From Leptospiraceae bacterium (GTDB lineage Bacteria > Spirochaetota > Leptospiria > Leptospirales > Leptonemataceae): DNA of 64,000 bases. The stretch spans positions 128,001-192,000 of the forward strand of contig JAVJNR010000004.1 in the NCBI GenBank assembly GCA_040217195.1, read 5' to 3'. The notes under the pieces were generated by a model. That model ran no database searches. It saw nothing but the letters and a program-made list of their open reading frames with translations, and had not been told where the DNA came from. Position 1 is the first letter of the stretch; the number at the start of each line of letters is the position of its first letter. Shown here piece after piece: positions 20,763-49,209 of this stretch. The translations under genes were made by a program, and so were the position numbers.

Positions 20763-20842
20763 TTTTTATTCCTCCGGTCGGCTTCCAACCCGCTTCAGTC
20801 CATGGACATCTTGCCAACCAGGAGAGGCAACCGGAATGAATC

Positions 20843-20887
20843 TTGACTTTTACTTGATCTTGTTTACACTGGTTATAGCCCTATAAC
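20843..20887 (+). promoter_or_regulatory. Sigma70-like promoter of the RND gene with adjacent palindromic TetR operator candidate
   Basis: TTGACT (20843) -16 nt- TACACT (20865), followed by the perfect inverted repeat GTTATAG-CC-CTATAAC (20872-20887). Confidence 0.65.
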
Positions 20888-20906
20888 ATCCACAGAGGAT
20901 TCTACA

Positions 20907-23900: not shown

Positions 23901-23996
23901 ATGGTGCCAGTATTTCTGGCAGTGGAAAGCGATATAAGAAAAATTATAAGTGGGAGAAACTCATTATGGGTATCAGAAGAATCACGGGAATTGTAA
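20907..23996 (+). CDS. RND efflux transporter permease (AcrB/AcrD/AcrF family)
   Basis: ITTVYPGSSP, LGMLVDDAIVVAE, PVFASALTT, GVVVNGSIV, SRLRPLLLTT. The in-frame extension to CTG 20907 restores the N-terminal ..YFLHRP.. motif. Confidence 0.92.
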   Translation: MEQLTRYFLHRPTLVHLIVVAVIFYGLLAIAQIRKEGFPTVSMNRILITTVYPGSSPRDVELNVTRPIEAEMAATEGVKEYLSLSREGLSLVDIRIDDDATPDRVRQIYNDIQQGIDGIDEFPEDLERPPVLDLISSGDAPIVEVALRNQAGMNRDHVDDLVKKLEKVAGVARCEVSGMSDTEIQVLVEPDRALENQVGLRSIAESIQRRNRQGSGGDLESFVGEKKIVSYSRYTSREEIRETIIRMGFGGNGVRLKDIAEVEERSEDTGLIVRNDGNPGVSISIIMKEGADILDTVEGVHQVLAAAIHPAGLEYSFLNDQSRLTRDRLSLVISNAIMGFILVVLVLFSIFNLRTSLWTAFGIPFSLLGVFILLYWLGYTLNVLTLGGFIIVLGMLVDDAIVVAEEINSQRETGKPPMEAALTAVQNVWKPVFASALTTMIAFTPLLSLGGLPGKFIWLIPLVVILALVVSLFESYFILPAHLSHGKTSKLHKSEVIRKVEVFYTRTLHFALGNRYSVIILAFIVLLLTVGLSFNYLKKDPFPQEAAEGLTLRLTFPLGSSLAFTSEQVEKAERILLSLPDTEIAGISSRIGTHSSSPTEDLGSMDNGAIIFVHLAPYGERSRTAAQIGDDIRSQIENAFQAQEFEYLVELMRIGPPLGRPFEIRLASNEEEVRAAESLRLQKYLRKIPGVLEVEDDTIAGKNELNLVPDHQLLAQAGLTVEDILTVLRISFDGMVVSSMTDVEGSKNIRLRLDQPARADPEFLKRLPISNKTGQMVRANRLMTLHEREAPGEIRHVDGVRTTTIFGNLDAEIISPEELMEMVRSDYEPISKVHMDFSGQPEETRIIFKNLQSAALFAGLGIYLVIALIFQSFFRPLVVLLALPFVLPGVLGALVAHGLPVSIFTGLAVIGLMGVVVNGSIVMVYTVLNGGSGNEAPDRDTIISGAVSRLRPLLLTTFTTVLGLFPTAYSLGGYDPFITPMCLALAYGLLLGTFVILVMVPVFLAVESDIRKIISGRNSLWVSEESREL

Positions 23997-34879: not shown

Positions 34880-36166
34880 TCAACTCTTACTCAGCCAGTG
34901 GCTTTCTTTTTCCAGTTCCTCCCTAAAGCTTGGATGAGCGATGGAGATAAGCAATCGAGATCTCTCGCGGAGGTTTTTTCCAAATAGGTTTACTACTCCG
35001 TACTCTGTGGCCACGTAATGAACATCACCTCGACTTGTTACAACTCCGGCTCCGGGTGCCAGCACCGGGCAGATGCGAGAGACCTTGCCTCCCTTTGCAG
35101 TACTGGGCAAAGCGATGAATGGCTTTCCACCAGGAGATCGGGCGGCACCACGGATAAAGTCCACCTGGCCTCCAATGCCGCTAAAAATGTTATGACCCAT
35201 GGAATCACTATTCACCTGGCCCGTAAGATCTATGGAAATGGCTGAATTGATTGCCACCATATTCTGATTCTGAGCAATGATGAATGGATCGTTCACATAA
35301 TGACTGGGGCGAAATTCAAAAATGGGATTGTTATCGATCGCATCATACAGGTCCCGACTGCCCATTGCAAAACTGGTCATTATCTTCCCGCGATGCAGAC
35401 CTTTCTTTTGATTGTTTAACACCCCGGACGATAACAGAGGCAAAATACCATCGCTGAACATTTCGGTATGGATACCCAGATCTCGGTGATTTCGAAGCTG
35501 GTTTAGCACTGCATTTGGAATTCCACCTATACCCAGCTGAAGAGTAGCCCCGTCATCGATCAGCTCCGCAATGTTTTTTCCAATTCGTTCTTCTACGTCA
35601 CTGGACTCTTTCATCTGTAATTCAAAGAGCTCCTCTTCCTGCTCCACGAAATAATCCACTTCTGACACATGGATGAAGCAATCCCCCAGAGCACGGGGCA
35701 TTCGAGGGTTCACTTGAGCAATTACCAGCTCGGCGGCTTCCGCACATGGTTTGGTGATACTGCACTCCACTCCGTAGCTCATATAACCGAACTGGTCCGG
35801 CGGACTGACGTGAATCAGGGCTACATGAAGGGGCCAGTTACCTCCCCTGACCAGCTTCGCGATTTCACTCAGGAAAATGGGAATATAATCAGATTTCCCT
35901 TCGTTTACCGCTTCCCGAATCGCAGGGCCAAGAAACCAGGCGTTGTCTCGCACACCTTCAATATTTCTGAATGGATCCTCCCCGAACGTCAGAAGATGAT
36001 TCAATTCCACATCTTTCAGATCAGATGCGCGATCAGCCAGCGCCGCAATGAGCGCTCCGGGCATGGAGGCATTCCCGGAAATAAACACTTTTTGACCGTC
36101 TTTAACATGACTGACGGCCTGTGCAGGCGAAATCTTCCTAGAATCGTAATGAGGTTTCCATTCCAT
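34880..36166 (-). CDS. Acetyl-CoA hydrolase/transferase family (4-hydroxybutyrate CoA-transferase-like)
   Basis: TLQLGIGGIPNAV, LGIHTEMFSDG, INSAISIDLTGQV, SGIGGQVDFIRGA, VATEYG. Confidence 0.92.
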   Translation of the reverse strand: MEWKPHYDSRKISPAQAVSHVKDGQKVFISGNASMPGALIAALADRASDLKDVELNHLLTFGEDPFRNIEGVRDNAWFLGPAIREAVNEGKSDYIPIFLSEIAKLVRGGNWPLHVALIHVSPPDQFGYMSYGVECSITKPCAEAAELVIAQVNPRMPRALGDCFIHVSEVDYFVEQEEELFELQMKESSDVEERIGKNIAELIDDGATLQLGIGGIPNAVLNQLRNHRDLGIHTEMFSDGILPLLSSGVLNNQKKGLHRGKIMTSFAMGSRDLYDAIDNNPIFEFRPSHYVNDPFIIAQNQNMVAINSAISIDLTGQVNSDSMGHNIFSGIGGQVDFIRGAARSPGGKPFIALPSTAKGGKVSRICPVLAPGAGVVTSRGDVHYVATEYGVVNLFGKNLRERSRLLISIAHPSFREELEKESHWLSKS

Positions 36167-38149: not shown

Positions 38150-38270
38150 AATAAAGCTATCGGCAATTGAAGGAAAAGCTTCATGGCGAGTCACTTTTTT
38201 GGAAAAGAATCCGTCTCCCAGGGCCCTGAACCGGTATTATGTCTCTTTCTACGGCGTGGAACCGGGACGA

Positions 38271-38390
38271 GTGCAGATTTGCACGCCGGGACGGGCAAAG
38301 GCGAACCCGGGAGGGATCGGCAGTCAGCGGCAATCTCTCCAGGTGCAGATTTGCACGCCCGAATGGGCAAAGGCGAACCCGGGAGGGATC
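38271..38390. repeat. Two direct copies of a 48-bp internally palindromic unit (period 72 bp)
   Basis: 38271-38318 and 38343-38390 are identical at 45 of 48 positions. Each begins with hairpin GTGCA-GATT-TGCAC. Confidence 0.9.
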
Positions 38391-38486
38391 TGGAGAGGAA
38401 CCGGAAGAAGTGCGGGAACCACCGGAAGCCGGAAGAATGCAGTTTTTTGCGATTTTCATTTCTGCCAGTATCAGCTTTCTTGCCCC

Positions 38487-38844
38487 GGGGATGCACCGCA
38501 TCGTCGCGCGGCCCCGAAAGGGGAGTGAGGAAAGTCCGGACACCGCAGGGCAGAAGACCGGGTAATTCCCGGGGGACGGGTTGGTAACCACTCGTTTACG
38601 GAAAGTGCCGCAGAAAATATACCGCCGGATTTAGATTCGGTAAGGGTGAAATGGCGAGGTAAGAGCTCACCGCACCAATCGCAAGTTTGGTGGCAGGGTA
38701 AACCCTCTTCGGTGCAATCTCAAGTAAGCAGCCGTCCAGGTCGGCCCGACCGTGGCTGTGGGTGGAGAGCAAGGAACTGCGGGGTAACTCGCAGGCAAGA
38801 TAAATGACGATGCTCGACAGAATCCGGCTTACAGGTGCATCCCC
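38487..38844 (+). ncRNA. rnpB: RNase P RNA (type A)
   Basis: GAGGAAAGTCCGG, GGAAAGTGCCGCAGAAA, AAGGGTGAAA, GGTAAGAGCTCACC, GGTAAACCC, ACAGAATCCGGCTTA. P1 pairing ggggatgcacc (38487) with ggtgcatcccc (38844). Confidence 0.97.
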
Positions 38845-38931
38845 ACCTTTTTAAAGCTTCGCATAATCGCAGACCGGATTCCATCAATGATCCATTCTGG
38901 AAATTTCGCTACCTGAAATGATGCGATTTAA

Positions 38932-40155
38932 TTATCCAGCGGAGGCAGCACTGGTACGTATGCGAAAGCTCTCGGTTGTCCAGAATGCAAGAACGAATAC
39001 AGAAACCAGAATAGCCAGTAATAGATACTCGGCCGGTTTCCATCCGCTCTCAGAGCTATGCAATAGTCCCATAATCGTGGCCACAATCACTCCACCACCA
39101 TTGCCTGCGAGCATCAACGCCCCGGCAGCGCCACCGGCTCTCTTCGCACCGGCCAACTCTTCTGACATGGCAAGTAGAAGAGCATAGCCAGGTAAAAAGA
39201 AGAAGCCCAGAAGTCCGCCAGCCCAGTAGAGAATGGTCAGATTGCCAGTCAAGAACAGAGGAATGGTGAGCAACAATCCGGCCACTCCGCAGAAGATCAG
39301 CACTGGTTTTCTTTTTTCTATCTTATCTGAGATGGCAGGAAGAATAAGAGAACCAAGAATCCCTCCTAGAATCATCACTCCACCAATGATTCCTGCATCC
39401 AATGGCTCAACGCCATTCTGCGAAAGCAAGGCCTCAAACCAGGTAGTGAGCCCATTAAAATAGCCCAGGGCCAGAAAGGCGATGACTATGACCAGTAGCA
39501 ATGCCGGTTGACGCAGTATTTCCATCATTTCGGAAAAGGCAGTGTAGGTCTGTACTTCCTGCTCCATCAAATTGCTGGCGGGATTCTCCCTGGTAAGCAA
39601 AATGAATAATACGGATATGAGTGCTGTGATGATTGCGAAAATTACCATAGTTGGCTGTAATCCATAGGATTCGCTTAATGCAGGGGTGGTAGCCATACCG
39701 GCCGCCATACCTGCGAACATCCCTGCCGTACCCAGGCCGGTTGCCAGAGCTCTTTGATGCTCATCAAACCAGTCTGCGGCCACTTTAGTAATTCCATTGA
39801 GTATGAAAGGCTGTGCGATTGCAATCAGAACCTGTCCGGCAAGCAAAGCCCAGAAACTGTCGGTATAGATGCGAACCACGGTTCCGATCGTCATGATCAC
39901 CGCTCCCAGGGAAAGGGTAATTCGGTATCCCCGACGATCGACCATAGCTCCGGAAGGCATGGCAAGAAAAACATACAGCAAAGGAAACACTAACGTTAGG
40001 GAGGTTGCCAGCATTTCATCCACCTGATATCTCTGCTGGATTTCCCCCAGAAGAGGTACGAAGTTTAACCATAATAATTGATTGATTCCAGCAAGCAGCA
40101 TGAAACATGCCAGCACTACCCATCTGTACGGATTTGAAAAGACCCCTTCCTTCAT
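38932..40155 (-). CDS. MFS transporter
   Basis: About 12 TM segments, motif A-like GAMVDRRGYR and SDKIEKRKP, WFDEHQRALATG. Confidence 0.92.
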   Translation of the reverse strand: MKEGVFSNPYRWVVLACFMLLAGINQLLWLNFVPLLGEIQQRYQVDEMLATSLTLVFPLLYVFLAMPSGAMVDRRGYRITLSLGAVIMTIGTVVRIYTDSFWALLAGQVLIAIAQPFILNGITKVAADWFDEHQRALATGLGTAGMFAGMAAGMATTPALSESYGLQPTMVIFAIITALISVLFILLTRENPASNLMEQEVQTYTAFSEMMEILRQPALLLVIVIAFLALGYFNGLTTWFEALLSQNGVEPLDAGIIGGVMILGGILGSLILPAISDKIEKRKPVLIFCGVAGLLLTIPLFLTGNLTILYWAGGLLGFFFLPGYALLLAMSEELAGAKRAGGAAGALMLAGNGGGVIVATIMGLLHSSESGWKPAEYLLLAILVSVFVLAFWTTESFRIRTSAASAG

Positions 40156-40240
40156 AGCATTCTCCTCTTAGTTTCTCTGTTCCACAACTCTACTATCGCC
40201 AAATCTATATCTCTTTAAGAAGCGATTCCCTTCTAAATGA

Positions 40241-40999
40241 TCAGTATGCAGTAAAGCCTCCAGGTATCTCGCCTCTGGCATAGCTCTCTGCAGATCTTTT
40301 TGCATCCTTTAACATTCTCTTATGAGCTATGATTCGCACATAGAATGGAACTTTTCTGATCTTCTTTCCAGTGAGATGGGCAAGCAAATAGGCTCGCGCG
40401 CATTTTTCCAATAGCTCTGCATTGAATACAAGCTTTTCTGCAGTTACACCGCAAACCAGAACAGAATCAGAAAGTATCACTACATTTGATCCATCGGAAA
40501 GCTCCTTAAATATACCATCTTGATCCGAATCACCGGAGCTTTCCGGAACCGAACGGATGCTTCGTCCCAGCTGCCTGGCCTGCTCATCGAACACTCCCGG
40601 CATGGACAATCCCAGCTCTCCCAGGGCCATGGCCCAGGTTGGATGACCGATCATTATAGCTCCTACATCCGGTCGCCTATGATAGATTCTGGAATGCAGA
40701 TCCTTTACCGATTCTTGCTCGTAATTAAGTTTCTCCTTTCGAACACCGTTTCTGGACCTGGTCTTGCTCTCCATATACTGAAATTCATCACCTCCAGGGA
40801 TGCGAATGGATACACTTCCTGTGGCCTCCCCAAAAGCTCCCTTGCTGTCCAGACGTCTGGCGATCTGCTGAAGCACTCCAGCTGATTCGCCTTTTTTATT
40901 TGCTTTTTCCGATGGTTTTACGGCAGGCCTATTCTTAACTCTGGAAGCAGAGCCCTTTCTATTCTGCTTTTTTCCTGCCCTGGGTTTTACTTCTGCCAT
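40241..40999 (-). CDS. Class II aldolase/adducin-like protein, Zn ligands degenerate
   Basis: GSVSIRIPG, LHSRIYHRRPDVGAI, AELLEKCA. HxH is replaced by IGH and NHG by SDS. Confidence 0.8.
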   Translation of the reverse strand: MAEVKPRAGKKQNRKGSASRVKNRPAVKPSEKANKKGESAGVLQQIARRLDSKGAFGEATGSVSIRIPGGDEFQYMESKTRSRNGVRKEKLNYEQESVKDLHSRIYHRRPDVGAIMIGHPTWAMALGELGLSMPGVFDEQARQLGRSIRSVPESSGDSDQDGIFKELSDGSNVVILSDSVLVCGVTAEKLVFNAELLEKCARAYLLAHLTGKKIRKVPFYVRIIAHKRMLKDAKRSAESYARGEIPGGFTAY

Positions 41000-41032
41000 T
41001 GTTCTGCTCCTTATTCGGTTCAGGCTGAGCCC

Positions 41033-42550
41033 CTAAACCATTTTCAGAACCGATTCAAAGCGATTCAATGCTTCATCGATTATTTTATCAGTATCTGCCA
41101 TGCTGGTATAGATGCGACTGCCGGCCAGAGTTACGATTCCGTTTGCCATAAATGCGGCTCCCATCTCCTCCATCATATGCTTGCGCTGTTTCACTTCCTT
41201 CAGCACCTTAATAGGATTTCGCATGCTCATCAGAAGCACAGCCGAGGTCTGAAGATGAACGATGGATCCCTGATTATACACCACATAGGGCAGATTCAAA
41301 CGATCCACAATTTCCTTGAGCCCTGCACATAATCTGTCTCCGGCTCGACCTGCCTTTACGGCTGCGTTGTGTTTTTCCATTTCCCGAATGGAAAAAAATC
41401 CCGCTGCACAGGACAGCGGGTTAGCCGAAAGAGTGCCACCAACAAAGGCTCGCTTACCCATTGCACTGATTCCGCCGGCCAGAAGCATCATTACTTCTTT
41501 TTTTCCGCCAACGCCACCAGCCATGGGATAGCCACCAGTTAAACATTTTCCGAATACAGTTAAATCCGGGCGAACATTGAAATATCCCTGTGCGCCGCCC
41601 AGACCCACTCTAAATCCAGTTACCACTTCATCAAATATCAGAAGAGCTCCAAACTCATCGCAGAGCTTTCGAAGTTCTCTATTGTAATTTTCATAGATTG
41701 GCCTGGTACCGCTTTCCGGGCCCAGGGGTTCTACGATTACAGCGGCCGTACCACCGCGAAGATGATTTAAACGCATTTTTCTGCGAAGGGCCCCAATATC
41801 ATTGGGGAAGCATTCCTGGGTTCCAGCGGTTGAACCACGGGTAATTCCAGCGGCTTCCCTTCTTCCAGTGCCCGGAATTCGCATACCATAGACCATGGAA
41901 TCGCTCCAGCCATGATAACCGCCCCCGATCTTAATTACTTTTCGCTTTCCTGTGTAGGCGCGGGCAAGTCGAATCGCAGCCATAACGCTTTCTGTACCGG
42001 ACCCCAGCATACGAAACATTTCAATTCCGGGCATATGCCGGTTAATTTCCTGGGCAAGCTTGTATTCGTATTCGTGAAGCAATCCAGTGACCGGACCGCA
42101 ATCCTTGATCAATTCGATCATCTTTTTTTGAACCGGGCCATAGTTGGAACCAAGCAGCGTTGGGCCGCCAGCCTGTAAAAAATCAATGTACTGGTTCCCA
42201 TCCACATCTCGAAGATAGGCCCCGCGGGCGCGATCCACCGCCAGAGGAAATGGGTAATTAAAGGCCAGATTATGCTGTACCCCACCCGGAATATACTTCT
42301 GAGCTTCATCGGATATGGCTCTGGACTTTTTGCATCTGGTTTCGAAGTAGTTCAGCACCTCATCCATTTTATCCCTTCGAATTGTGCGAGGTGGCTCTTT
42401 CAGAAGCGCTTTCAGTTTATCATAAATCTCATCCGTATCAAGCCATGAGGAGATGGCATATTTCTGCGAAGGATTTACATCCCTGGCTGTTCCATTCACT
42501 CTCTTCTGGGTTCTTCGTGTCGTATTTCTCTCTATACTTGCTGTGCTCAT
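41033..42550 (-). CDS. Class III PLP-dependent aminotransferase, glutamate-1-semialdehyde aminomutase-like
   Basis: IPGGVQHN, DVDGNQYIDF, SGTESVMAAIRLAR, YHGWSD, LIFDEVVTGFR, FGKCLTGG (PLP Lys), GGTLSANP. Confidence 0.9.
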   Translation of the reverse strand: MSTASIERNTTRRTQKRVNGTARDVNPSQKYAISSWLDTDEIYDKLKALLKEPPRTIRRDKMDEVLNYFETRCKKSRAISDEAQKYIPGGVQHNLAFNYPFPLAVDRARGAYLRDVDGNQYIDFLQAGGPTLLGSNYGPVQKKMIELIKDCGPVTGLLHEYEYKLAQEINRHMPGIEMFRMLGSGTESVMAAIRLARAYTGKRKVIKIGGGYHGWSDSMVYGMRIPGTGRREAAGITRGSTAGTQECFPNDIGALRRKMRLNHLRGGTAAVIVEPLGPESGTRPIYENYNRELRKLCDEFGALLIFDEVVTGFRVGLGGAQGYFNVRPDLTVFGKCLTGGYPMAGGVGGKKEVMMLLAGGISAMGKRAFVGGTLSANPLSCAAGFFSIREMEKHNAAVKAGRAGDRLCAGLKEIVDRLNLPYVVYNQGSIVHLQTSAVLLMSMRNPIKVLKEVKQRKHMMEEMGAAFMANGIVTLAGSRIYTSMADTDKIIDEALNRFESVLKMV

Positions 42551-42634
42551 TTTTATCTCCCGAGTTAATACTCTCTATTTATTTATAACTATTACAGTGC
42601 TTATGCCCGCGGTAGTCAGCGGCGTTCTGACAGA

Positions 42635-43279
42635 TTAGATTGTCCTGAACTCCTGAAGACTGGCCAGGGCCTGCTTAACAATTCCCGAAGCAGAGCCATT
42701 ACTGGCAACGGTTATGGCCTCCTCAAGATACCGGGCGGCGGCCTTTTCTATTAGCCGAACATTGCGAATGGCCTGCTCCATATTTGAAGCGCCGCAGATA
42801 ATACCATGATTTCGAAGCAGGTACCCGTTCAGATCTTTGCGTAGTTTCTTTTTCAGAGCCCGGACCAGCATGCTTGTTCCAGATGGTCCGTATCCAACCA
42901 CCGGAATCCTTTCTCCCAGAGCTTCCTGCTCTTCTCCGTACATGAGTGGGATATCCCGGTTCAGCAAGGCCATGGCGCTGGCAACAGGCTGATGAGTATG
43001 AACACTTGCCCGAATTTCTGGTCGATGCCTGAAAATGAGTGCGTGCAAGCCGCTTTCTACACTTGGAGTGCGATCTCCCTCCAGTAGTTCCAGGGAATGG
43101 ATATCCAGAATACATATGTCGTCTGGTTTCATGGAAAAGTAATCCGCAGCCGAAGGCGTTACCGCCATTCTATCGGCGATGCGAAGTGCAAGATTGCCGC
43201 CAATACCTGCCAGATAGCCCATCCCGGAAAGGACATGACAGGCCTCCACAACCTGTTTCTTTAATTCATAGTTCGACAT
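42635..43279 (-). CDS. Class II (Zn) aldolase/adducin family, FucA-like
   Basis: GGNLALR, VTPS, PSVESGLH, VHTHQ, LLRNHG. GAGG SD before ATG 43279. Confidence 0.9.
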   Translation of the reverse strand: MSNYELKKQVVEACHVLSGMGYLAGIGGNLALRIADRMAVTPSAADYFSMKPDDICILDIHSLELLEGDRTPSVESGLHALIFRHRPEIRASVHTHQPVASAMALLNRDIPLMYGEEQEALGERIPVVGYGPSGTSMLVRALKKKLRKDLNGYLLRNHGIICGASNMEQAIRNVRLIEKAAARYLEEAITVASNGSASGIVKQALASLQEFRTI

Positions 43280-43292
43280 TTTCTTCCTCGTT

Positions 43293-44888
43293 TCAGGAAC
43301 CGGTCTGCCGATTCCATTTTTTATACAGAGGAGCCAGCCTCTTATGCAGCTCTTTAAATCTCTGAAATGATTCATTCATGATTTCGTGGTGTGCCATTAC
43401 AGGCTCATAGACCTGTTGAATCTTGATTCTTTGTGAAACATCCGAGTAATTCAGATATCCCAGACCAACAGCTGCAATCCAGGCAGCACCCCTTGCATTG
43501 GTTTCCATGGGTCCTTCTGGTTGATGCACAGCAATACCCAGAGTATCAGCGAAAATCTGACACCAGATATTCGAAACGGCTCCTCCGCCCACCATTGTAA
43601 TAGAATCTAGAGAATGCCCCAGGAACTTTTCTGTTGGCTTAATCATCCATCGAGTATTCAAAGCTACTCCTTCGAGAAAGGCTCGAATAATGTCTTCGCG
43701 ACTATGTTCCAGGGAAAGATTTATAAGGCCAGCCCGGAGGGATCGATCTTCTACCGGACATCGTTCTCCGTAGAGCCAGGGCAAATACATCAATCCACGA
43801 CTTCCGGCCGGGGTCCGTGCTGCGATTAAATCCAGTATCTTATATACGTCCGGTGCATGGGTTTCCCGCAGTAATTCATCCTCATGGTAGAGTACTCTTT
43901 CTTTCAGGAAAGTAAGGTTACCCCCGGCCGTGGTTTGCATGGCGGTCATCAGGTACTTACCTGGAATAGCGCAGGGCACGGAGGCAATACTGGAAAGCAC
44001 ATCCGTTTTCTTTTTACTCATATGCGCCGCAATCCAGGAAGACGTGCCAATATAAAAGTGAGCCTGACCATCGCTTACGGCTCCTGATCCAATGGCAGCG
44101 GCACTATTGTCGATGGCACCGGCCACTACCTGAGTGTCCCTGGAAAGACCCAGCTTATCGGCCACCTCTGGAAGCACAGGCCCCAGAGGCTCCGTGCAGG
44201 ATACGATCTCAGGAAACTTATCCGACTCGATTCCCGAGGCCCTTAGCAGAGAATTGTTATAGCGAATTTGATTGCTGTTCCTATTGTCTGTGACCCAGGA
44301 AGTTAGGATGGAATCGGATGTTGCCAGGAATCGACCGGACAATTTAAGATTCAAATAATCCAGCACATTCAGGAATTTATAAGTTCTCTCGTAGATAGCA
44401 GGATGCTCATCTCGAATATAGAGCATATGGGCGAATGGATCCTTACCAGAAAGAGCCGGAGCCCCGCCTGTGAGACTGATCCACTTCCAGAGCTTCCATG
44501 GGCCATAGCCGGCCACGCGAAAAGCTCCCCCCACAGCGCGATGTACATGCTCTGCACCGCGCATATCCATCCATAGAATCGCATTCATTAGAGGATTTCC
44601 CGAGGCATCAACGGCTACGGTTCCCTCACCCTGAGTGGAGCAGCAAATTGCTTTGATTTGATCCCTGGAAACAGAGCCGGAAGCAATAGCCTTCTGGGCC
44701 GTAACCAGAAGTGCATTCCACCAATCCCGGGGGTCCTGTTCGGCCCCATGCCCTTCCCGCAAATGCAACGGTACTTCCTGAAAAGCCCAGGAATGGACTT
44801 TTCCATTAAGATCGCACAATGCAGTCTTGCATCCCGATGTGCCCAGGTCCACTGCCAGGATCATAGTTTGCTCTGCGGCATCCGCCAT
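43293..44888 (-). CDS. FGGY-family carbohydrate kinase (xylulokinase-like)
   Basis: LAVDLGTSGCK, AEQDP.DWW, AILWMDMRG, IGTSSW, LPWLYGERCP, RAFLEGVA, VGGGA.S.IWCQIFAD. Start 44888 or 44909. Confidence 0.92.
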   Translation of the reverse strand: MADAAEQTMILAVDLGTSGCKTALCDLNGKVHSWAFQEVPLHLREGHGAEQDPRDWWNALLVTAQKAIASGSVSRDQIKAICCSTQGEGTVAVDASGNPLMNAILWMDMRGAEHVHRAVGGAFRVAGYGPWKLWKWISLTGGAPALSGKDPFAHMLYIRDEHPAIYERTYKFLNVLDYLNLKLSGRFLATSDSILTSWVTDNRNSNQIRYNNSLLRASGIESDKFPEIVSCTEPLGPVLPEVADKLGLSRDTQVVAGAIDNSAAAIGSGAVSDGQAHFYIGTSSWIAAHMSKKKTDVLSSIASVPCAIPGKYLMTAMQTTAGGNLTFLKERVLYHEDELLRETHAPDVYKILDLIAARTPAGSRGLMYLPWLYGERCPVEDRSLRAGLINLSLEHSREDIIRAFLEGVALNTRWMIKPTEKFLGHSLDSITMVGGGAVSNIWCQIFADTLGIAVHQPEGPMETNARGAAWIAAVGLGYLNYSDVSQRIKIQQVYEPVMAHHEIMNESFQRFKELHKRLAPLYKKWNRQTGS

Positions 44889-44898
44889 AATGACCCAG

Positions 44899-45086
44899 AA
44901 ATTAGTCATGGAGCTCGCATAGTCAACAATTGTTTATTCTTTACTGGAGAAATTGAACAATTTTTCAGAATCAGGAACGATTATGCGACATAATCAACGG
45001 ATTAGGAGGGAATATGGAGCAAAATGATGACAACTGTCGATTTTTTAGTCGATTTTTGTTGACACTTCTACAGAAAAACCCAATAT
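44899..45086. promoter_or_regulatory. Divergent promoter region of kinase operon and tetR, with two related palindromes
   Basis: AACAATTGTT (44925-44934) overlaps a minus-strand TTGACT -35. GACAACTGTC at 45029-45038. Plus-strand TTGACA (45059) -16 nt- CAATAT before tetR. Confidence 0.55.
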
Positions 45087-45092
45087 CCGGGT

Positions 45093-45770
45093 ATGGATTC
45101 TCGACTTACAGATGCTTCTCTTGCTCCGGAACTGGGGCCCAGGAAGTTTAAGTTCACCAGCCGCCAGGGTCGAGACAGACGAGCCAGGCTCCTGGGAGCT
45201 GCACGAGAGCTACTGAGGGAAGCTTCCCCGGAAAACATTAGCTTTGCAGATGTTTGCCAGAAAGCAGAAATTCCCAGACCCTCTGCCTACCATTTCTTTC
45301 CCAATATACAGGCTATTTTTCACGGACTTCGGTTGCTGCATGCAGAGACTCTGGTGGAAAGAGCGCTGGTACTTCAATCCCGGGATTTTGACAACTGGAG
45401 AGATTACCTGGATGCGCTGGTGGATACTGCATTGCAGGTCACTCAATCGGATGCAGCCTATCCAGCATTGATATATGGTTATGGCCTGGACTTCCTGGAA
45501 ACCCGGGAAATTGGCAGAGATCTGGATAGCCGCCTGGCTGGCCTGGCATTGCAGGGAATGAAGAACAAGTTTACACTTCCGGATATTGCCAATCTGGAAG
45601 AAATCTTTGGCATCGCCCTTGCGATCATAGACTCAATATTTCGCCAGTCCTTTCGTCGCAAAGGCAAGATCTCTCCAGAAATGGTCATGGAAGCCAAACG
45701 TGCTGCCACTTCCTATTTAAAGCTCTACATACCAGAATTTATTCCTGCACGCAGGATGGATGGGAAATGA
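45093..45770 (+). CDS. TetR/AcrR-family transcriptional regulator
   Basis: RRARLLGAARELL and HTH ISFADVCQKAEIPRPSAYHFFPN. Confidence 0.9.
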   Translation: MDSRLTDASLAPELGPRKFKFTSRQGRDRRARLLGAARELLREASPENISFADVCQKAEIPRPSAYHFFPNIQAIFHGLRLLHAETLVERALVLQSRDFDNWRDYLDALVDTALQVTQSDAAYPALIYGYGLDFLETREIGRDLDSRLAGLALQGMKNKFTLPDIANLEEIFGIALAIIDSIFRQSFRRKGKISPEMVMEAKRAATSYLKLYIPEFIPARRMDGK

Positions 45771-45917
45771 GAACTCAAATAGGGACTCAATGTTTCATAA
45801 AGATTCAATACATAAAATAGAAAAAAACAATCCGAACGAATCGGAAGAGTGACCGCGAAAGCGGAAATATAAACAGACAATGTGCGAAAGAGTGAGATCA
45901 ACTTTGGGGGGTTAAGA

Positions 45918-48194
45918 ATGAAACGATTCTTACCAGGGATGGTACTTGCAGCCATCCCATTATTGACAGTCTGCAAGAATAACAGTGATGCGCCATTGGG
46001 TTTCGTACCGGGCTCCGAGGTTTCTTCTATAGAATCCGCTCTGGGCCTTCAAAGTCTATCTGTAGATAGCGGAACCTACAACGTGGGAGCATCCAAAATA
46101 GATATCACCGGTCCATTTGCACAAGAAAGTACCGGGTATAATAGTCCTGGCGAAACAATGGATGGCCTGGCGATGAGGCTCTATAGCAGAACATTTGTTA
46201 TTGAGCAGCCCGGCGGCAAGATAATTGCCATTGCAACCGCAGATCAGCTTCATCTCTACCAGAGCATCAAGCTCGGTGTAGTGAAGAAACTGGCCCTGGA
46301 TGGCTATGGACATGTGTTCGATGAGCGCAATGTGATGATTTCGGCTACTCACACTCATGCGGCCACTTCAAATCATAGCTGGTACACACTCTTCAATCTG
46401 TTCAATGGAGTCACTGGATTTGACGAACTTCATTATCAGGTTGTAGTAAGCGGGATAGCAAAATCCATCGAAGAGGCCTATGATAATCGTCAGGCGGCAA
46501 AGATTAAATTTGCAAAAGGGCCTGTAACTGACGGTGGCTTTAATCGGTCCACCATTGCCTACGACACCAATCCAGATGCTTCCAACTATGATGAGAATAT
46601 CGATGAAAACATGACACTGTTAAGATTCGATTCCATTTCAGGAGAGCCTATTGGTGCCATCAACTGGTACGGAGTACACGGAACTTCCCTGGGAATCAAC
46701 AACAGCAGGATCCATGGGAACAACAAAGGCTGGGCTTCCTATGAGATGGAAAAACAAATGGGCGGCGACTTTGTAGCTGCTTTCGCACAAAGCACCGTTG
46801 GCGATGTTAGCCCGAATCAACCAGATCCGAATGACATTACTCTGGCTTTTCTGCGTCCATCGGACCTGGATCCCACCCTGGACACCCTGGATGATCCTGT
46901 AGTTCACGGACAGAAGCAACTCAGCAAAGCTCTGGAACTTTACAGCCAGGCCCAGGAAATGAATGCAGTGGCTATAGATTTTCGCCACAGCTTTGTAAAC
47001 TTCAATCAGGTACCGGTTTCCAATCAATACATTGGAGACCATCGAATGCCCTATGATACGGAAGTAGACCAAAACCAGGCCTCTACCTGTGTTGCCACAG
47101 TGGGTGCTGCATTTCTTGCAGGAGATGAAGAAGGGGCCCCTGTGGATTTCGCAGAGGAAGGTGAGATTCGTAACAACTACACCTATGAGAATGGACAGTG
47201 GGTGCGAAATGAATACAATCTTACCAATCTGGACGGAGTAGCTCAAATTCTGGGCGTGTTCTGGCCATTGGCTTCCCAGGTACTTCAAACAAGCAAGTTC
47301 GATGCATGCGCGAAAGAAAAACTGGCATTGCTTCCAGTAGGCGAAGTGGACGATTTCTGGTTTCCCAATCCAGAAGTTCCATTTATACCTGTAAATGTAC
47401 CGGTTCAGACCATTCGCATTGGAGACCTGGTCATTGCGGGCTCATCATTTGAAATCACAACAATGGCCGGCCGTCGGGCGGAGTCTGTGTTGCTCAATAC
47501 TCTGAATCCTGCAGGAGTGGATCATATTGTAATAGGATCCATGGTAAATTCCTACACAAATTACCTGGCCACTCGCGAAGAGTATGCGGCCCAGCACTAT
47601 GAAGGTTCCTTTACAGTGTTTGGACCATTTTCTGCAGCAGCTTTTAGACAGGAAATGGATCGTCTGGCCACCGATATGGTGAACAATCAGCCCAGTGATT
47701 CTGGACCGGTACCACCGGATCTCGCCAGCCAGCAGCTAATCGAAACCTGGATTTCAGCCAATGGTGTTGTAAATGATGGGGGTAACTTCGGAACCGTTCT
47801 CACAGCTCCGGCCGCCAGCTACGATGCGAGCAAGGATTCGGTTACTGTTGTATTCCAGGCCGCCCACCCAAGAACGGCACTGATCAAGAAGATGGATGGC
47901 ACTCTGGCTAACTATTATGATCCAGAGGACTATCAATTGATCGAAGTTCAAAGAAACGTCAACGGAAACTGGCAGACTGTGGCCACCGAATCGGATCCCT
48001 ATACCAGCTTTCAATGGGTTCGAACCGGCGGGGATTTAAGCGCCACCTCGGAAGCCACTGTGACCTGGAAGATTCGAGACCAGGCTCCAGGAACCTATAG
48101 AATCCGATACAACGGCCTTGCAAAGCGCTGGTACTTCTTCTGGACTTCCTATGAATCCTTCACAGGCAGCACGTCCAGCTTCCAGCTTCAATAG
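45918..48194 (+). CDS. Neutral/alkaline ceramidase, probable lipoprotein
   Basis: RLYSRTF, ISATHTH, FNRS, WYGVHGTS, NKGWASY, AFAQSTVGDVSPN, EITTMAGRR, YLATREEYAAQHYEG, PGTYRIRYNG. Signal MKRFLPG...LLTVC. Confidence 0.92.
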   Translation: MKRFLPGMVLAAIPLLTVCKNNSDAPLGFVPGSEVSSIESALGLQSLSVDSGTYNVGASKIDITGPFAQESTGYNSPGETMDGLAMRLYSRTFVIEQPGGKIIAIATADQLHLYQSIKLGVVKKLALDGYGHVFDERNVMISATHTHAATSNHSWYTLFNLFNGVTGFDELHYQVVVSGIAKSIEEAYDNRQAAKIKFAKGPVTDGGFNRSTIAYDTNPDASNYDENIDENMTLLRFDSISGEPIGAINWYGVHGTSLGINNSRIHGNNKGWASYEMEKQMGGDFVAAFAQSTVGDVSPNQPDPNDITLAFLRPSDLDPTLDTLDDPVVHGQKQLSKALELYSQAQEMNAVAIDFRHSFVNFNQVPVSNQYIGDHRMPYDTEVDQNQASTCVATVGAAFLAGDEEGAPVDFAEEGEIRNNYTYENGQWVRNEYNLTNLDGVAQILGVFWPLASQVLQTSKFDACAKEKLALLPVGEVDDFWFPNPEVPFIPVNVPVQTIRIGDLVIAGSSFEITTMAGRRAESVLLNTLNPAGVDHIVIGSMVNSYTNYLATREEYAAQHYEGSFTVFGPFSAAAFRQEMDRLATDMVNNQPSDSGPVPPDLASQQLIETWISANGVVNDGGNFGTVLTAPAASYDASKDSVTVVFQAAHPRTALIKKMDGTLANYYDPEDYQLIEVQRNVNGNWQTVATESDPYTSFQWVRTGGDLSATSEATVTWKIRDQAPGTYRIRYNGLAKRWYFFWTSYESFTGSTSSFQLQ

Positions 48195-48246: not shown

Positions 48247-48276
48247 GGCCCGCGATGAAAATCGTGGGCCTTTTTT
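48247..48276 (+). terminator. Rho-independent terminator after the ceramidase gene
   Basis: ggcccgcgat-gaaa-atcgtgggcc followed by TTTTTT. A second hairpin, cctggattct/agaatccagg, lies at 48211-48237. Confidence 0.85.
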
Positions 48277-48567
48277 CCTTCCAAACTTTTGGGATTCGCG
48301 GATTTCCGGGAAGAATATAGATCACGGTTGCAGTTTATTCGAAGCTAAAGGAGCAATCTGAACCAAACTATCAATTCAAAGATAGGGGCCTTCCGGAGAG
48401 AAAAGAATAAGGGGACCTGCATTGCTACTTATTGAATCAGTCGGTGTGGACTGGCCCCTGGCTCGCAGTACTTCCAGTGATTTCCGGTCTGATAGCCCTT
48501 TTCGCCAGGGTAAAAAACAGAACCTATGCCGGAATTATTGACAACGGATCTGCTCACTTCAACCTGC

Positions 48568-48762
48568 CGATAAGGTTTCGCTTATCCCTGATATGCGAAT
48601 GAAAAGGGAAATCGGTGCAAATCCGATGCTGTACCCGCAGCTGTAAATTCAGGCTCTGTAATTTGGATTGGTTTCTAACATTGTGGAGCGGTGCTTATCT
48701 AATCCACTGCTATGCGGGAAGGAGATGAGCATTATCTGAAGAAGCCAGAAGACCTGCCTTAG
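48568..48762 (+). ncRNA. Cobalamin (B12) riboswitch
   Basis: AAGGT...AAAAGGGAAatCGGTGcAAATCCG..GCTGTACCCGCAGCTGTA...CCACTG...GGGAAGG...AGCCAGAAGACCTGCCTT (B12 box). TTGACA -35 at 48538. Confidence 0.95.
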
Positions 48763-48859
48763 AATATCCATGACTTTCGGGAGTTAGAGTCAGGCAGCAT
48801 TCCTCAATTCTGGAATACTACCTCTTTAGCCCCGCAGGCAAAGGCCTGACGGAGGAAAA

Positions 48860-48973
48860 ATGAAAATCGAAAAAGATAAGAACGATGCACTGTCGTTTCT
48901 ATATTCTGTTGAGCATTCCATTCTGCAGATGTGTTTCACCGAATCCAATGCTAATCCGGGGGACGTGGGATGA
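48860..48973 (+). CDS. Putative 37-aa small protein immediately downstream of the B12 riboswitch
   Basis: GGAGG SD, ATG 48860, MKIEKDKNDALSFLYSVEHSILQMCFTESNANPGDVG*. Its stop overlaps the next ATG (ATGA). Confidence 0.5.
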   Translation: MKIEKDKNDALSFLYSVEHSILQMCFTESNANPGDVG

Positions 48974-49209
48974 ATCATTGTGACCGTCCACAGAATCAGG
49001 ACCCGGCTTCGCTAGAAGGCACTGCCCATGAGTTGATATCCTGCCCTCGCTGCCGCATTAGTTTCGCATGTACGCCCACCAGTATTAGCGCTTGCTGGTG
49101 TATTCATGAAAAAATCTCGATAGAACTAATGCGTAAGCTGGAAGGACAATTTAACGGATGCTTGTGCAGAGAATGCCTTCTGGAACTGGCAGCTGAAAAT
49201 GCGCAATAG
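48970..49209 (+). CDS. Cysteine-rich CWC family protein
   Basis: CPRC.I.F.C......CWC...............CLCRECL pattern. Confidence 0.85.
   Translation: MNHCDRPQNQDPASLEGTAHELISCPRCRISFACTPTSISACWCIHEKISIELMRKLEGQFNGCLCRECLLELAAENAQ

What the first reader, a model, noticed from the sequence alone, without database searches (positions are those of the whole stretch)
38932..48194. Candidate new sphingolipid catabolic locus: ceramidase + TetR divergent from kinase-aldolase-aminotransferase-pseudoaldolase-MFS operon
Seen: a lipoprotein neutral ceramidase and TetR on +, facing away from a closely spaced minus-strand run of FGGY kinase, Zn class II aldolase, GSAM-like class III aminotransferase, degenerate aldolase and MFS. 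Established: ceramidase releases a fatty acid and a 2-amino-1,3(,4)-polyol sphingoid base. FucA-type aldolases cleave 2-keto-3,4-dihydroxy-1-phosphates into DHAP plus an aldehyde. Leptospiraceae grow on long-chain fatty acids. Inference: C2 transamination and C1 phosphorylation of phytosphingosine give exactly a ketose-1-phosphate mimic, which would be split to DHAP + pentadecanal. That would be a route independent of S1P lyase, which I do not know to be described. Delta-4 sphingosine would need an extra step not visible here.
Basis: partly seen in the sequence, partly recalled or inferred. Interest (0 to 1): 0.9.

Follow-up and report, generated by a model that had tools for sequence, protein, structure and literature searches.

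The report
Candidate bacterial sphingoid-base breakdown locus
A marine relative of Leptospira has a secreted ceramidase beside a repressor-controlled transporter, aminotransferase, kinase and aldolase operon, and because the same enzyme set sits beside sphingolipid-cleaving enzymes in several unrelated bacteria it is a credible, untested route for breaking down the sphingolipid backbone.

Summary

- The aminotransferase/kinase/aldolase module lies within 10 kb of neutral ceramidases in four separate aminotransferase clades. These have different gene orders and different regulators.
- It lies beside endoglycoceramidase-like GH5 genes in two lineages, beside FadL in two, and beside SCP2 in two loci.
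- In 301 Spirochaetota genomes, 9 of the 10 genera with a ceramidase also have the aminotransferase. The aminotransferase occurs in 19 of 126 genera overall.

Against a strict pairing: 76 of 80 module loci have no ceramidase nearby, and 40 of 50 carrier genomes gave no match.

The "degenerate aldolase" is not decaying. It lost the zinc site but keeps an invariant FDEQ motif and a C-terminal tyrosine that its catalytic partner lost. It is predicted to pair with that partner.

The chemistry is untested. As proposed, it is transamination, phosphorylation and aldol cleavage of phytosphingosine-type bases to DHAP plus a fatty aldehyde.

Eight literature searches found no description of such a route. 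This scan has already flagged the same module on other DNA.

The parts
38932..40155 (-). MFS transporter and last gene of the operon. Proposed importer or flippase for the sphingoid base.
   Evidence: PF07690, 1.4e-53. A same-family MFS is found in 38 of 80 module loci. A 46%-identical MFS sits in an MFS-hyp-ceramidase run without the enzyme module in L113. The RNase P RNA gene follows on the other strand.
40241..40999 (-). Zn-less class II aldolase paralogue (pAld). Proposed non-catalytic subunit that supplies the FDEQ motif and the C-terminal Tyr to the aldolase active site.
   Evidence: PF00596, 5.4e-13. The first Zn His is absent in 12 of 12 aligned pAld. F137, D138, E139, Q140 and Y252 are invariant in 12 of 12. 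Predicted to bind Ald: score 0.91, best control 0.00.
41033..42550 (-). Class III PLP aminotransferase, GSAM-like, with a roughly 45-residue family-specific N-terminal extension. Proposed to deaminate C2 of the sphingoid base.
   Evidence: PF00202, 4.4e-51. HemL TIGR00713 scores 278 against a cut-off of 527. Best PDB hit is GSAM 4e77 (1.4e-69); FumI 6hbs scores 7.5e-24. It is 58-92% identical across the 80 kept loci from many phyla.
42635..43279 (-). Class II (Zn) aldolase, the catalytic subunit.
   Evidence: PF00596, 4.5e-38. Best PDB hits are fuculose-1-phosphate aldolases (6btd, 2.2e-23). Glu, HxH and His are conserved.
43293..44909 (-). FGGY-family kinase and first gene of the operon. Proposed to phosphorylate the C1 hydroxyl.
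   Evidence: PF00370 and PF02782. XylB TIGR01312 scores 269.7 against a cut-off of 380. Best PDB hit is xylulokinase 2itm (4.2e-37). An FGGY gene is present in 55 of 80 module loci.
44910..45092 (.). Divergent control region. It holds conserved elements: AACAATTGTTGAC at 44922-44934 and GTCAACAA... near the TetR start.
   Evidence: The elements are conserved in L006, L007 and L008. The 13-mer has a single exact hit in the window. The third conserved element, GGATTATGTCNCATA, is a genome-wide dispersed motif and not locus-specific.
45093..45770 (+). TetR-family repressor of the module.
   Evidence: PF00440, PF17918 and PF17928. 75-88% identical TetRs lie at the same place in L006-L008 and a 44% one in L037. 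A 52% one follows a ceramidase in L133.
45921..48194 (+). Neutral ceramidase with a signal peptide and lipobox. Probably co-transcribed with TetR.
   Evidence: PF04734 and PF17048. PDB 2zws, 9.2e-91. The scan reports no plus-strand terminator-like site between TetR and the ceramidase.
48247..48270 (+). Intrinsic terminator-like hairpin after the ceramidase.
   Evidence: 10-pair stem with 7 GC pairs and a T tail.

Best explanation
This is a sphingolipid-backbone catabolic locus.

Proposed steps:
1. The lipoprotein ceramidase splits ceramide outside the cytoplasm into a fatty acid and a long-chain (sphingoid) base.
2. The MFS takes the base up.
3. The GSAM-like aminotransferase removes the C2 amino group, giving a 2-oxo-1,3,4-triol.
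4. The FGGY kinase phosphorylates C1, giving a lipid-tailed ketose-1-phosphate analogue.
5. A heteromeric class II aldolase cleaves C3-C4 to DHAP plus a fatty aldehyde (pentadecanal from phytosphingosine). In this heteromer the Zn subunit Ald pairs with the Zn-less partner pAld.
6. The TetR represses the divergent units until a ligand arrives.

Shown here: the genes, their family features, the conservation of the module, its repeated linkage to sphingolipid hydrolases, and the complementary sequence losses in Ald and pAld.

Inferred: the substrate, the order of steps, the products, the regulation, and the physical Ald/pAld complex, which rests on a model only.
For: 1. The module is real and widespread. 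578 of 600 pattern matches in species genomes encode a relative of the aminotransferase. Of the 80 loci kept, 62 have the aldolase, 55 the FGGY kinase, 51 both, and 38 the MFS.

2. A ceramidase lies within 10 kb of the module in four aminotransferase clades:
- The window's clade: L006, L007, L087.
- Myxococcales, with the order ALD-AT-FGGY-TetR-ceramidase-hyp-FadL-GH5: L072 and L083, plus 3 of the 5 AT-bearing genomes in a 301-genome Myxococcota sample.
- Spirochaetota family f33: 6 of 9 AT-bearing genomes, with a 7TM-GAF-AraC regulator and a GDH-like gene.
- A metagenome lineage with two tandem ceramidases plus a RuBisCO-like protein: L114, L122, L123, L131.
On the AT tree the ceramidase label needs 3 changes.

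3. Reciprocal test. Starting from ceramidases, 5 of the 27 metagenome loci of at least 15 kb hold the module (5 of 79 in all).

4. Other sphingolipid or lipid neighbours:
- The GH5 in L011 matches an endoglycosylceramidase (6jyz, 7.3e-93) and lies directly upstream of FGGY.
- The Myxococcales GH5 best matches endoglycoceramidase II (2osw, 1.2e-15).
- FadL/TodX is present in L039/L040 and in L072/L083.
- SCP2 is present in L013 and L041, and L041 also has a GH31-SCP2 fusion.
- An aldehyde dehydrogenase is present in 5 of 80 loci.
- None of the 96 neighbour representatives scanned was a periplasmic solute-binding protein.

5. Phyletic profile in Spirochaetota. 42 of 58 AT genomes have a ceramidase, against 9 of 243 genomes without the AT. 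At genus level 9 of 10 ceramidase genera have the AT, against 19 of 126 overall (hypergeometric 5e-8). In Myxococcota the figures are 4 of 5 against 28 of 296.

6. Chemistry. The aldolase keeps the FucA-type Zn ligands, the Glu and the phosphate-loop motifs. A class III aminotransferase that deaminates C2 of a sphinganine-like aminopolyol is known: FumI (PMC3136697, abstract and passages read).

7. Ald/pAld. The losses are complementary. The predicted complex scores 0.91 against a best control of 0.00. That mark was reached by 116 of 157 solved complexes and 2 of 215 mismatched pairs. The runs agree in at least 95% of contacts and the partner's pLDDT is at least 83. pAld residues 136-139 and 250-252 touch Ald residues 74, 96 and 156-158.
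Against: - 76 of 80 module loci have no ceramidase within the fetched flanks.
- 40 of 50 carrier genomes gave no PF04734 match at 1e-10, and only 5 gave strong full-length matches. Many of these are incomplete MAGs.
- In Leptospira-like family f2, all 26 AT-bearing genomes also have ceramidases, but none lies within 10 kb on the same contig.
- Kin are not independent, so the genome-level Fisher values overstate the case.
- The three deep ceramidase-linked AT clades were partly found by searching with a ceramidase. Their place on the tree is therefore a biased sample.
- No FGGY kinase is known to me to act on a lipid (recalled).
- Several Chloroflexota loci sit among ordinary glycosidases and sugar genes: GH1, GH4, GH94, GH127, fucosidase, AraA.
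- Retro-aldol cleavage needs a 4-hydroxyl. Sphingosine and sphinganine would therefore not be cleaved by the enzymes seen here.
- Some loci replace or supplement the aldolase with a RuBisCO-like protein, which hints at other chemistry.
- The Ald/pAld pass may simply reflect likeness to solved class II aldolase homotetramers.
- No candidate operator is shared with the ceramidase upstream region.
- There are no expression or biochemical data.
Confidence: 0.55

Rival explanations
1. The substrate is the same (sphingoid bases) but the chemistry differs. For example, the kinase may act before the aminotransferase. Alternatively, the aldolase-fold enzyme may act as a dehydratase or epimerase on the 2-oxo-1-phosphate, as MtnB does on methylthioribulose-1-phosphate. 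In that case other enzymes, such as the RuBisCO-like protein of some loci, would finish the cleavage, and the products would not be DHAP plus pentadecanal.
For: - The 2-oxo-phytosphingosine-1-phosphate intermediate is formally an analogue of methylthioribulose-1-phosphate (inference).
- A RuBisCO-like protein sits with AT and FGGY in L030, L052, L061 and L064 without an aldolase. In the L123 lineage it sits beside both an aldolase and two ceramidases.
- The MtnB models also hit the aldolase (NF006672, 1.8e-21).
Against: - The aldolase is closer to FucA than to the putative MtnB aq_1979 (2.2e-23 against 7.9e-15).
- It keeps the Glu at the FucA Glu73 position. By my recollection, MtnB/APIP has no Glu there.
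- The own genome gave no match to the L123 RuBisCO-like protein (genome 93.7% complete).
Confidence: 0.2
2. The module degrades a soluble amino-polyol or amino sugar unrelated to lipids. The ceramidase, GH5 and FadL neighbours would then be coincidental, or they would act on some other N-acylated amino-polyol.
For: - FGGY kinases, FucA-like aldolases and MFS carriers normally handle small sugars (family knowledge).
- Most carriers show no ceramidase.
- Chloroflexota loci lie among glycosidases.
- In Leptospira-like f2 genomes the two are never adjacent.
Against: - Ceramidase adjacency recurs in four AT clades with different gene orders and regulators.
- Endoglycoceramidase-like GH5, FadL and SCP2 neighbours recur.
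- Genus-level co-occurrence is strong.
- No solute-binding-protein ABC importer was among the 96 neighbour representatives scanned.
- I could name no natural soluble 2-amino-1,3,4-triol that is common enough to explain at least 578 loci.
Confidence: 0.15
3. The core function is detoxification, not nutrition. The TetR-controlled aminotransferase removes the antimicrobial amino group of sphingoid bases, and the kinase and aldolase are later add-ons.
For: TetR-AT pairs without kinase or aldolase occur in the gut Clostridia loci L065, L066, L068, L069, L071, L074 and L082, and in the Thorarchaeota loci L075 and L080. Sphingoid bases inhibit bacteria, and P. aeruginosa needs sphBC to grow in their presence (PMC11893366, abstract and passages read).
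Against: In this window a full kinase/aldolase/transporter set is present and tightly spaced. Importing a toxic compound fits catabolism better than defence.
Confidence: 0.07
4. The direction is biosynthetic. The aldolase would condense DHAP with a fatty aldehyde and the aminotransferase would aminate the product, making a sphingoid-like base without serine palmitoyltransferase.
For: Class II aldolases and transaminases are reversible (family knowledge).
Against: An ATP-dependent kinase, an importer-type MFS, a repressor, a secreted ceramidase, FadL and endoglycoceramidase-like neighbours all point to breakdown.
Confidence: 0.03

Closest known systems
L-fucose / L-rhamnose catabolism (FGGY kinase FucK/RhaB plus class II ketose-1-phosphate aldolase FucA/RhaD)
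   Same: An FGGY kinase is followed by a Zn class II aldolase with FucA-type ligands. The proposed products are DHAP plus an aldehyde.
   Different: The entry step is a transamination, not an isomerisation. The proposed substrate has a C14 alkyl tail. The aldolase appears split into a Zn subunit and a Zn-less partner. No equivalog cut-off is reached (FucA TIGR01086 scores 86.4 against 400).
Pseudomonas aeruginosa SphR / CerN / SphA / SphBCD sphingosine response (PMC3900636 and PMC5150637 seen in search listings only; PMC11893366 abstract and passages read)
   Same: A secreted neutral ceramidase is coupled to sphingoid-base-responsive metabolic genes. The ceramidase here is related to CerN (2zws, 9.2e-91).
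   Different: That system uses a periplasmic oxidase, a cytochrome c and a PLP aldolase under an AraC regulator, and its product is still unidentified. Here the enzymes are cytoplasmic-type (AT, FGGY, class II aldolase) under a TetR.
Eukaryotic and bacterial sphingosine kinase plus sphingosine-1-phosphate lyase route (recalled)
   Same: C1 is phosphorylated before a C-C cleavage that releases a fatty aldehyde.
   Different: That kinase is of the DAG-kinase type. That cleavage is PLP-dependent at C2-C3 and gives phosphoethanolamine. Here the amine would be removed first, and cleavage would be metal-dependent at C3-C4 and give DHAP. I did not search the own genome for an S1P lyase.
Fumonisin catabolism in Sphingopyxis sp. 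MTA144: FumD carboxylesterase plus FumI aminotransferase (PMC3136697)
   Same: A class III aminotransferase removes the C2 amino group of a sphinganine-like aminopolyol. In L077 a 74%-identical AT is followed by a COesterase-family gene.
   Different: FumI is only a distant relative (6hbs, 7.5e-24, against GSAM at 1.4e-69). Neither a kinase nor an aldolase is described in what I read.
Methionine salvage and the DHAP shunt (MtnB/Ald2 class II aldolase fold, MtnW RuBisCO-like enolase; recalled)
   Same: A class II aldolase-fold enzyme acts on a 1-phospho-2-keto-3,4-diol. RuBisCO-like partners occur in some variants of the module.
   Different: The MtnB equivalog cut-offs are not met (76.5 against 226). 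Neither an MtnK/MtnA-type gene nor a RuBisCO-like gene was found with my query in this genome.

Membership tests
Neutral/alkaline non-lysosomal ceramidase | Both Pfam domains (PF04734 N-terminal, PF17048 C-terminal) above their gathering scores | tested here: met
   375.6 bits against 32.1, and 98.8 bits against 30.5.
Neutral/alkaline non-lysosomal ceramidase | Similarity to solved ceramidases, including the His-x-His metal motif | tested here: met
   2zws at 9.2e-91 and human 4wgk at 5.2e-70. ATHTH aligns with ATHTH. H144, H146 and H253 are invariant in 4 of 4 aligned ceramidases.
Neutral/alkaline non-lysosomal ceramidase | NCBIfam equivalog NF041649 cut-off | tested here: not met
   276.7 bits against a cut-off of 1200. 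This is a divergent member with an insertion of roughly 75 residues between the two aligned blocks.
Class II (Zn) ketose-1-phosphate aldolase, FucA type | Three His Zn ligands plus the Glu, and the phosphate-binding GGN and TPS motifs | tested here: met
   PSVE, HTHQP and NHG align with FucA homologues. They are invariant in 11 of 11 Ald sequences. The residue roles are recalled from the FucA literature.
Class II (Zn) ketose-1-phosphate aldolase, FucA type | Equivalog score for L-fuculose-phosphate aldolase | tested here: not met
   TIGR01086 scores 86.4 against 400.25, and NF005302 scores 99.3 against 264. It is not FucA itself.
Class II aldolase (the pAld gene) | Zn ligands | tested here: not met
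   The first His is absent in 12 of 12 pAld. The second is kept in 3 of 12. The NHG His is not aligned in any of the 12.
Glutamate-1-semialdehyde 2,1-aminomutase (HemL) | Equivalog score | tested here: not met
   TIGR00713 scores 278.2 against 527.3, and NF000818 scores 301.6 against 398. There is an N-terminal extension before the GSAM-aligned part, which starts at residue 73-75.
FGGY xylulokinase (XylB) | Equivalog score | tested here: not met
   TIGR01312 scores 269.7 against 380.25. Both FGGY domains are present.
TetR-family repressor | N-terminal TetR HTH plus a TetR C-terminal domain | tested here: met
   PF00440 scores 28.5 against 24, and PF17918 scores 31.4 against 26.8.
P. aeruginosa Sph regulon (SphR, SphBCD) | AraC-type SphR, periplasmic oxidase SphC, cytochrome c SphB | not tested
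   No such domains occur among the genes of 38932-48194. The genome was not searched for them because I held no reference sequences.
MtnB methylthioribulose-1-phosphate dehydratase | Equivalog score | tested here: not met
   NF006672 scores 76.5 against 226, and TIGR03328 scores 64.7 against 137.

The most novel reading that the evidence does not exclude
Bacteria and some archaea have a widespread route for sphingoid bases that is independent of S1P lyase and treats the lipid head group like a sugar.
- A dedicated GSAM-like aminotransferase subfamily deaminates C2.
- An FGGY kinase phosphorylates C1. This would be the first lipid-tailed substrate for that family.
- A class II aldolase releases DHAP and a fatty aldehyde. 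In one clade this aldolase has split into a Zn subunit and a Zn-less subunit that supplies the acid/base residues.
- Variants with a RuBisCO-like protein would handle bases that lack the 4-hydroxyl.
- The aminotransferase alone, under a TetR, would serve as a sphingoid-base detoxifier in gut Clostridia and Asgard archaea.
Probability: 0.4. Interest if true: 0.9.

Novelty: new variant of a known kind. Interest (0 to 1): 0.8.

Why it matters
How bacteria dispose of the sphingoid backbone is still open. The best-studied case is P. aeruginosa sphBCD, and its product has not been identified (PMC11893366).

If this module is the missing route, three things follow:
- It would explain how soil, marine, sludge and gut microbes recycle a major class of eukaryotic and bacterial membrane lipids and resist antimicrobial sphingoid bases.
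- It would assign a function to a conserved gene set found in hundreds of species across many phyla.
- It would extend FGGY kinases and FucA-type aldolases to lipid substrates.

Cultured carriers exist, so the hypothesis can be tested directly. The Ald/pAld pair is also a clean example of an enzyme split into complementary catalytic and non-catalytic paralogues.

Tried and rejected
- A shared operator wiring the ceramidase to the operon. Conserved intergenic elements exist. AACAATTGTTGAC has no second copy upstream of the ceramidase. GGATTATGTCNCATA is a dispersed genome-wide motif, with 21 matches at up to 1 mismatch against 1 for the reversed control. I dropped it as an operator.
- Expression. 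No RNA holder is listed for the stretch. The only holders are DNA runs labelled marine metagenome.
- AT-aldolase fusions. The long ORFs in L032 and L063 are not fusions. The 790-aa ORF of L032 matches only the AT. These are probably spurious extensions in GC-rich DNA.
- RuBisCO-like partner in this genome. Not found with the L123 protein as query (genome 93.7% complete).
- Obligatory ceramidase partnership. Rejected, because only 10 of 50 carrier genomes have a PF04734 match.
- The CoA-transferase at 34880-36166 as part of the operon. An OmpA-family gene and the RNase P RNA lie between it and the MFS, so it is not in the transcription unit.
- The search of earlier findings by place returned nothing for this window.
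- Literature. Eight searches found no paper that assigns this gene set or describes an aminotransferase/FGGY/aldolase route for sphingoid bases. The held library omits most subscription journals.

Full report
**What is there**

Minus strand, in order of transcription:
- FGGY kinase, 43293-44909.
- Class II aldolase Ald, 42635-43279.
- Class III aminotransferase AT, 41033-42550.
- A second aldolase-fold protein, pAld, 40241-40999.
- MFS, 38932-40155.

The gaps between these genes are 13, 84, 33 and 85 nt.

Plus strand:
- TetR, 45093-45770, which starts 183 nt from the kinase and reads the opposite way.
- A neutral ceramidase, 45921-48194, which starts 150 nt after the TetR.

The scan reports no plus-strand terminator-like site between TetR and the ceramidase. 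A strong one follows the ceramidase at 48247-48270. The operon ends at the RNase P RNA gene at 38488-38847.

None of the four enzymes reaches the equivalog cut-off of a named enzyme: HemL, FucA, XylB or NF041649. They belong to the families without being the textbook members.

**The organism**

The nearest records are titled Leptonemataceae or Leptospiraceae MAGs, with the AT 89-92% identical. The genome is in the same order as the sampled Leptospira-like family f2 but in a different family. The stretch is held only by DNA runs labelled marine metagenome, and no RNA holder is listed.

**The module is widespread**

The best 80 loci were kept. They are 58-92% identical and come from these groups:
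- Chloroflexota
- Burkholderiales
- Rhizobiaceae
- Acidobacteriota
- Pseudomonas oryzihabitans
- Clostridia
- Planctomycetota
- Myxococcales
- Thorarchaeota

Of the 80 loci, 62 have the aldolase, 55 an FGGY kinase, 51 both, 38 the MFS, and 4 a ceramidase.

By my tally of the clusters, a TetR-family gene lies beside the module in 46 of 80 loci and an AraC-type gene in 6. So the TetR belongs to the module, not to the ceramidase. Fourteen loci have the AT without a detectable kinase or aldolase. Several of these are TetR-AT pairs in gut Clostridia and Thorarchaeota, and some are short contigs.

**Link to sphingolipids: neighbourhoods**

A ceramidase is adjacent to the module in four AT clades.

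1. The window's clade: L006, L007 and L087. The sister locus L008 has the same flanks without a ceramidase.

2. Myxococcales loci L072 and L083. One co-directional run reads ALD-AT-FGGY-TetR-ceramidase-hypothetical (474 aa)-FadL/TodX-GH5. The best solved relative of that GH5 is endoglycoceramidase II (2osw, 1.2e-15). In a 301-genome Myxococcota sample, 5 genomes have the AT. Three of these have a ceramidase about 3 kb away, and 4 have one somewhere in the genome.

3. Spirochaetota family f33. In 6 of 9 AT-bearing genomes a ceramidase lies 5-7 kb from the AT. The layout is ceramidase, a 7TM-GAF-AraC regulator, SpoIIE, then FGGY-ALD-AT-MFS and a 979-aa GDH-like protein.

4. A metagenome lineage: L114, L122, L123 and L131, with the AT 46% identical. 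The layout is MFS-TetR-FGGY-AT-RuBisCO-like protein, reading away from DUF2147 and two tandem ceramidases, with an aldolase nearby.

On an AT tree the ceramidase label needs 3 changes, or 2 if only well-supported branches are counted. Clades 3 and 4 were found by looking for ceramidases, so the tree is a biased sample. The FGGY kinases of these clades are only 30-33% identical to the window's.

Other lipid-related neighbours:
- In L011 (Oxalobacteraceae) a GH5 matching an endoglycosylceramidase (6jyz, 7.3e-93) lies between the AraC gene and FGGY-ALD-AT-pALD.
- In L039 and L040 (Rhizobiaceae) pALD is followed by an NAD-dependent reductase-like gene and FadL.
- SCP2 occurs in L013 and L041, and L041 also has a GH31-SCP2 fusion.
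- In L077 the AT is followed by a COesterase-family gene, which recalls FumD and FumI.
- In L113 a 46%-identical MFS sits in an MFS-hyp-ceramidase run without the enzymes.
- An aldehyde dehydrogenase is near the module in 5 of 80 loci.

**Reciprocal and phyletic tests**

I started from a ceramidase alignment and fetched 79 metagenome loci. Five of them hold the module. That is 5 of the 27 loci that are at least 15 kb long. Two further short contigs are truncated copies of the window type (L086) and the Myxococcales type (L105).

In 301 Spirochaetota genomes:
- 51 have a ceramidase and 58 have the AT.
- 42 have both, so 9 of the 243 genomes without the AT have a ceramidase.
- By genus, 10 have a ceramidase, 19 have the AT and 9 have both, out of 126 (hypergeometric 5e-8).

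Kin are not independent, so I rely on the genus-level figure.

**Results against a strict link**

- 76 of 80 module loci have no ceramidase in the fetched flanks.
- Only 10 of 50 carrier genomes have a PF04734 match, and only 5 of these are strong and full-length.
- In family f2, all 26 AT-bearing genomes have ceramidases, but none lies within 10 kb on the same contig.
- Ceramidase orthologues also occur in genus g2, which has no AT (0 of 15 genomes).
- Several Chloroflexota loci lie among ordinary glycosidases.

The ceramidase is therefore an optional front end to the module. Free bases from the environment, or other amidases, would have to feed the module elsewhere.

**The 'degenerate' aldolase**

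Alignment of 11 Ald, 12 pAld and single-copy aldolases from other clades shows complementary losses.
- Ald keeps the Glu, His-x-His and His of the Zn site. It has lost a motif (F/Y)DEQxRxLG and a basic C-terminal tail.
- pAld has lost the Zn ligands. It keeps FDEQ invariant (F137, D138, E139, Q140), the tail, and an invariant last residue, Y252.
- The single aldolases of Chloroflexota have both sets of features.
- Two-gene systems are confined to one AT clade of 21 rows.

A two-chain model scores 0.91 against a best control of 0.00. That mark was reached by 116 of 157 solved complexes and 2 of 215 mismatched pairs. The runs agree in at least 95% of contacts, and the partner's pLDDT is at least 83. 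The model puts pAld residues 136-139 and 250-252 against Ald residues 74, 96 and 156-158, which are at the Zn site.

Class II aldolases are solved as homotetramers whose active sites use residues of the neighbouring subunit. The examples I recall are Tyr113' and Tyr209' in FucA and Asp120' and Tyr229' in AraD. The pass may therefore reflect that likeness rather than anything specific to this pair.

My reading is a heteromer in which Ald binds the metal and phosphate and pAld supplies the acid/base and aldehyde-side residues.

**Mechanism**

Deamination of a 2-amino-1,3,4-triol at C2 followed by phosphorylation at C1 gives a 1-phospho-2-keto-3,4-diol. This is the substrate type of FucA-like aldolases. 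Cleavage would give DHAP and a fatty aldehyde.

This works for phytosphingosine-type bases only. Sphingosine and sphinganine lack the 4-hydroxyl. The RuBisCO-like variants may deal with those bases or use other chemistry, but none was found in this genome.

A class III aminotransferase acting at C2 of a sphinganine analogue has a precedent in FumI. FumI is only a distant relative of this AT.

All of this chemistry is inference.

**Regulation**

The divergent region holds elements conserved in L006-L008. The 13-mer AACAATTGTTGAC is unique in the window and is a candidate operator. A third conserved element is a dispersed genome-wide motif. I found nothing shared with the ceramidase's upstream region. 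Co-transcription of the ceramidase with TetR is the simplest link.

**Known or new**

Eight full-text searches found no description of such a route or of this gene set. The library lacks most subscription journals.

The P. aeruginosa sphBCD system is different, and its product is unidentified.

Earlier notes of this scan describe the same module on other DNA with the same idea. They are not independent evidence. I re-derived the f33 and RuBisCO-like layouts myself.

**Verdict**

The sphingolipid link is well supported by comparative genomics. The chemistry is plausible but untested.

Noticed in passing
window 38488-38847 (+): Bacterial RNase P RNA class A (276.5 bits, E 6e-90). It overlaps the spurious ORFs at 38181-38591 and marks the end of the operon.
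   Followed up: partly
window 48558-48775 (+) and 48970-49209 (+): Cobalamin riboswitch (87.8 bits, E 4.8e-21) just downstream of the ceramidase terminator. It is followed by a small Cys-rich 79-aa ORF.
   Followed up: no
window 44982-44996 (-); G000:C3:167626-167748 and 16 other places: The 15-nt motif GGATTATGTCNCATA occurs 21 times in the genome at up to 1 mismatch, against 1 for the reversed control. Four copies are spaced 36 bp apart. It is conserved at the same intergenic place in L006-L008. Nature unknown.
   Followed up: partly
window 34880-36166 (-): An acetyl-CoA hydrolase/transferase-family CoA-transferase, syntenic in L006-L008. It is 40-42% identical to CoA-transferases that sit next to the AT in the RuBisCO-like variant loci L030 and L061. 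It may be coincidence.
   Followed up: partly
L123 2809-4152 (-), 9929-14082 (+): A RuBisCO-like protein lies in one operon with AT, FGGY, TetR and MFS, reading away from DUF2147 and two tandem neutral ceramidases. This ties the RuBisCO-like variant of the module to ceramidases as well.
   Followed up: partly
L065, L066, L068, L069, L071, L074, L082; L075, L080: TetR-AT pairs without kinase or aldolase occur in gut Clostridia MAGs and Thorarchaeota, with the AT 62-64% identical to the window's.
   Followed up: no
L041 11293-14415 (+): A GH31 glycosidase fused to a C-terminal SCP2 lipid-transfer domain, in a Chloroflexota module locus that also has a free SCP2 and a GH4.
   Followed up: no
L072 16344-17768; L083 11722-13152; L105 2178-3581: A conserved 474-476-aa protein with no Pfam match lies between the ceramidase and FadL in the Myxococcales-type operon. 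The L105 copy is 80% identical.
   Followed up: no
window 20163-23996: A second TetR (YsiA-like C-terminal domain) reads away from an AcrB-family RND pump. It is unrelated to the finding.
   Followed up: no
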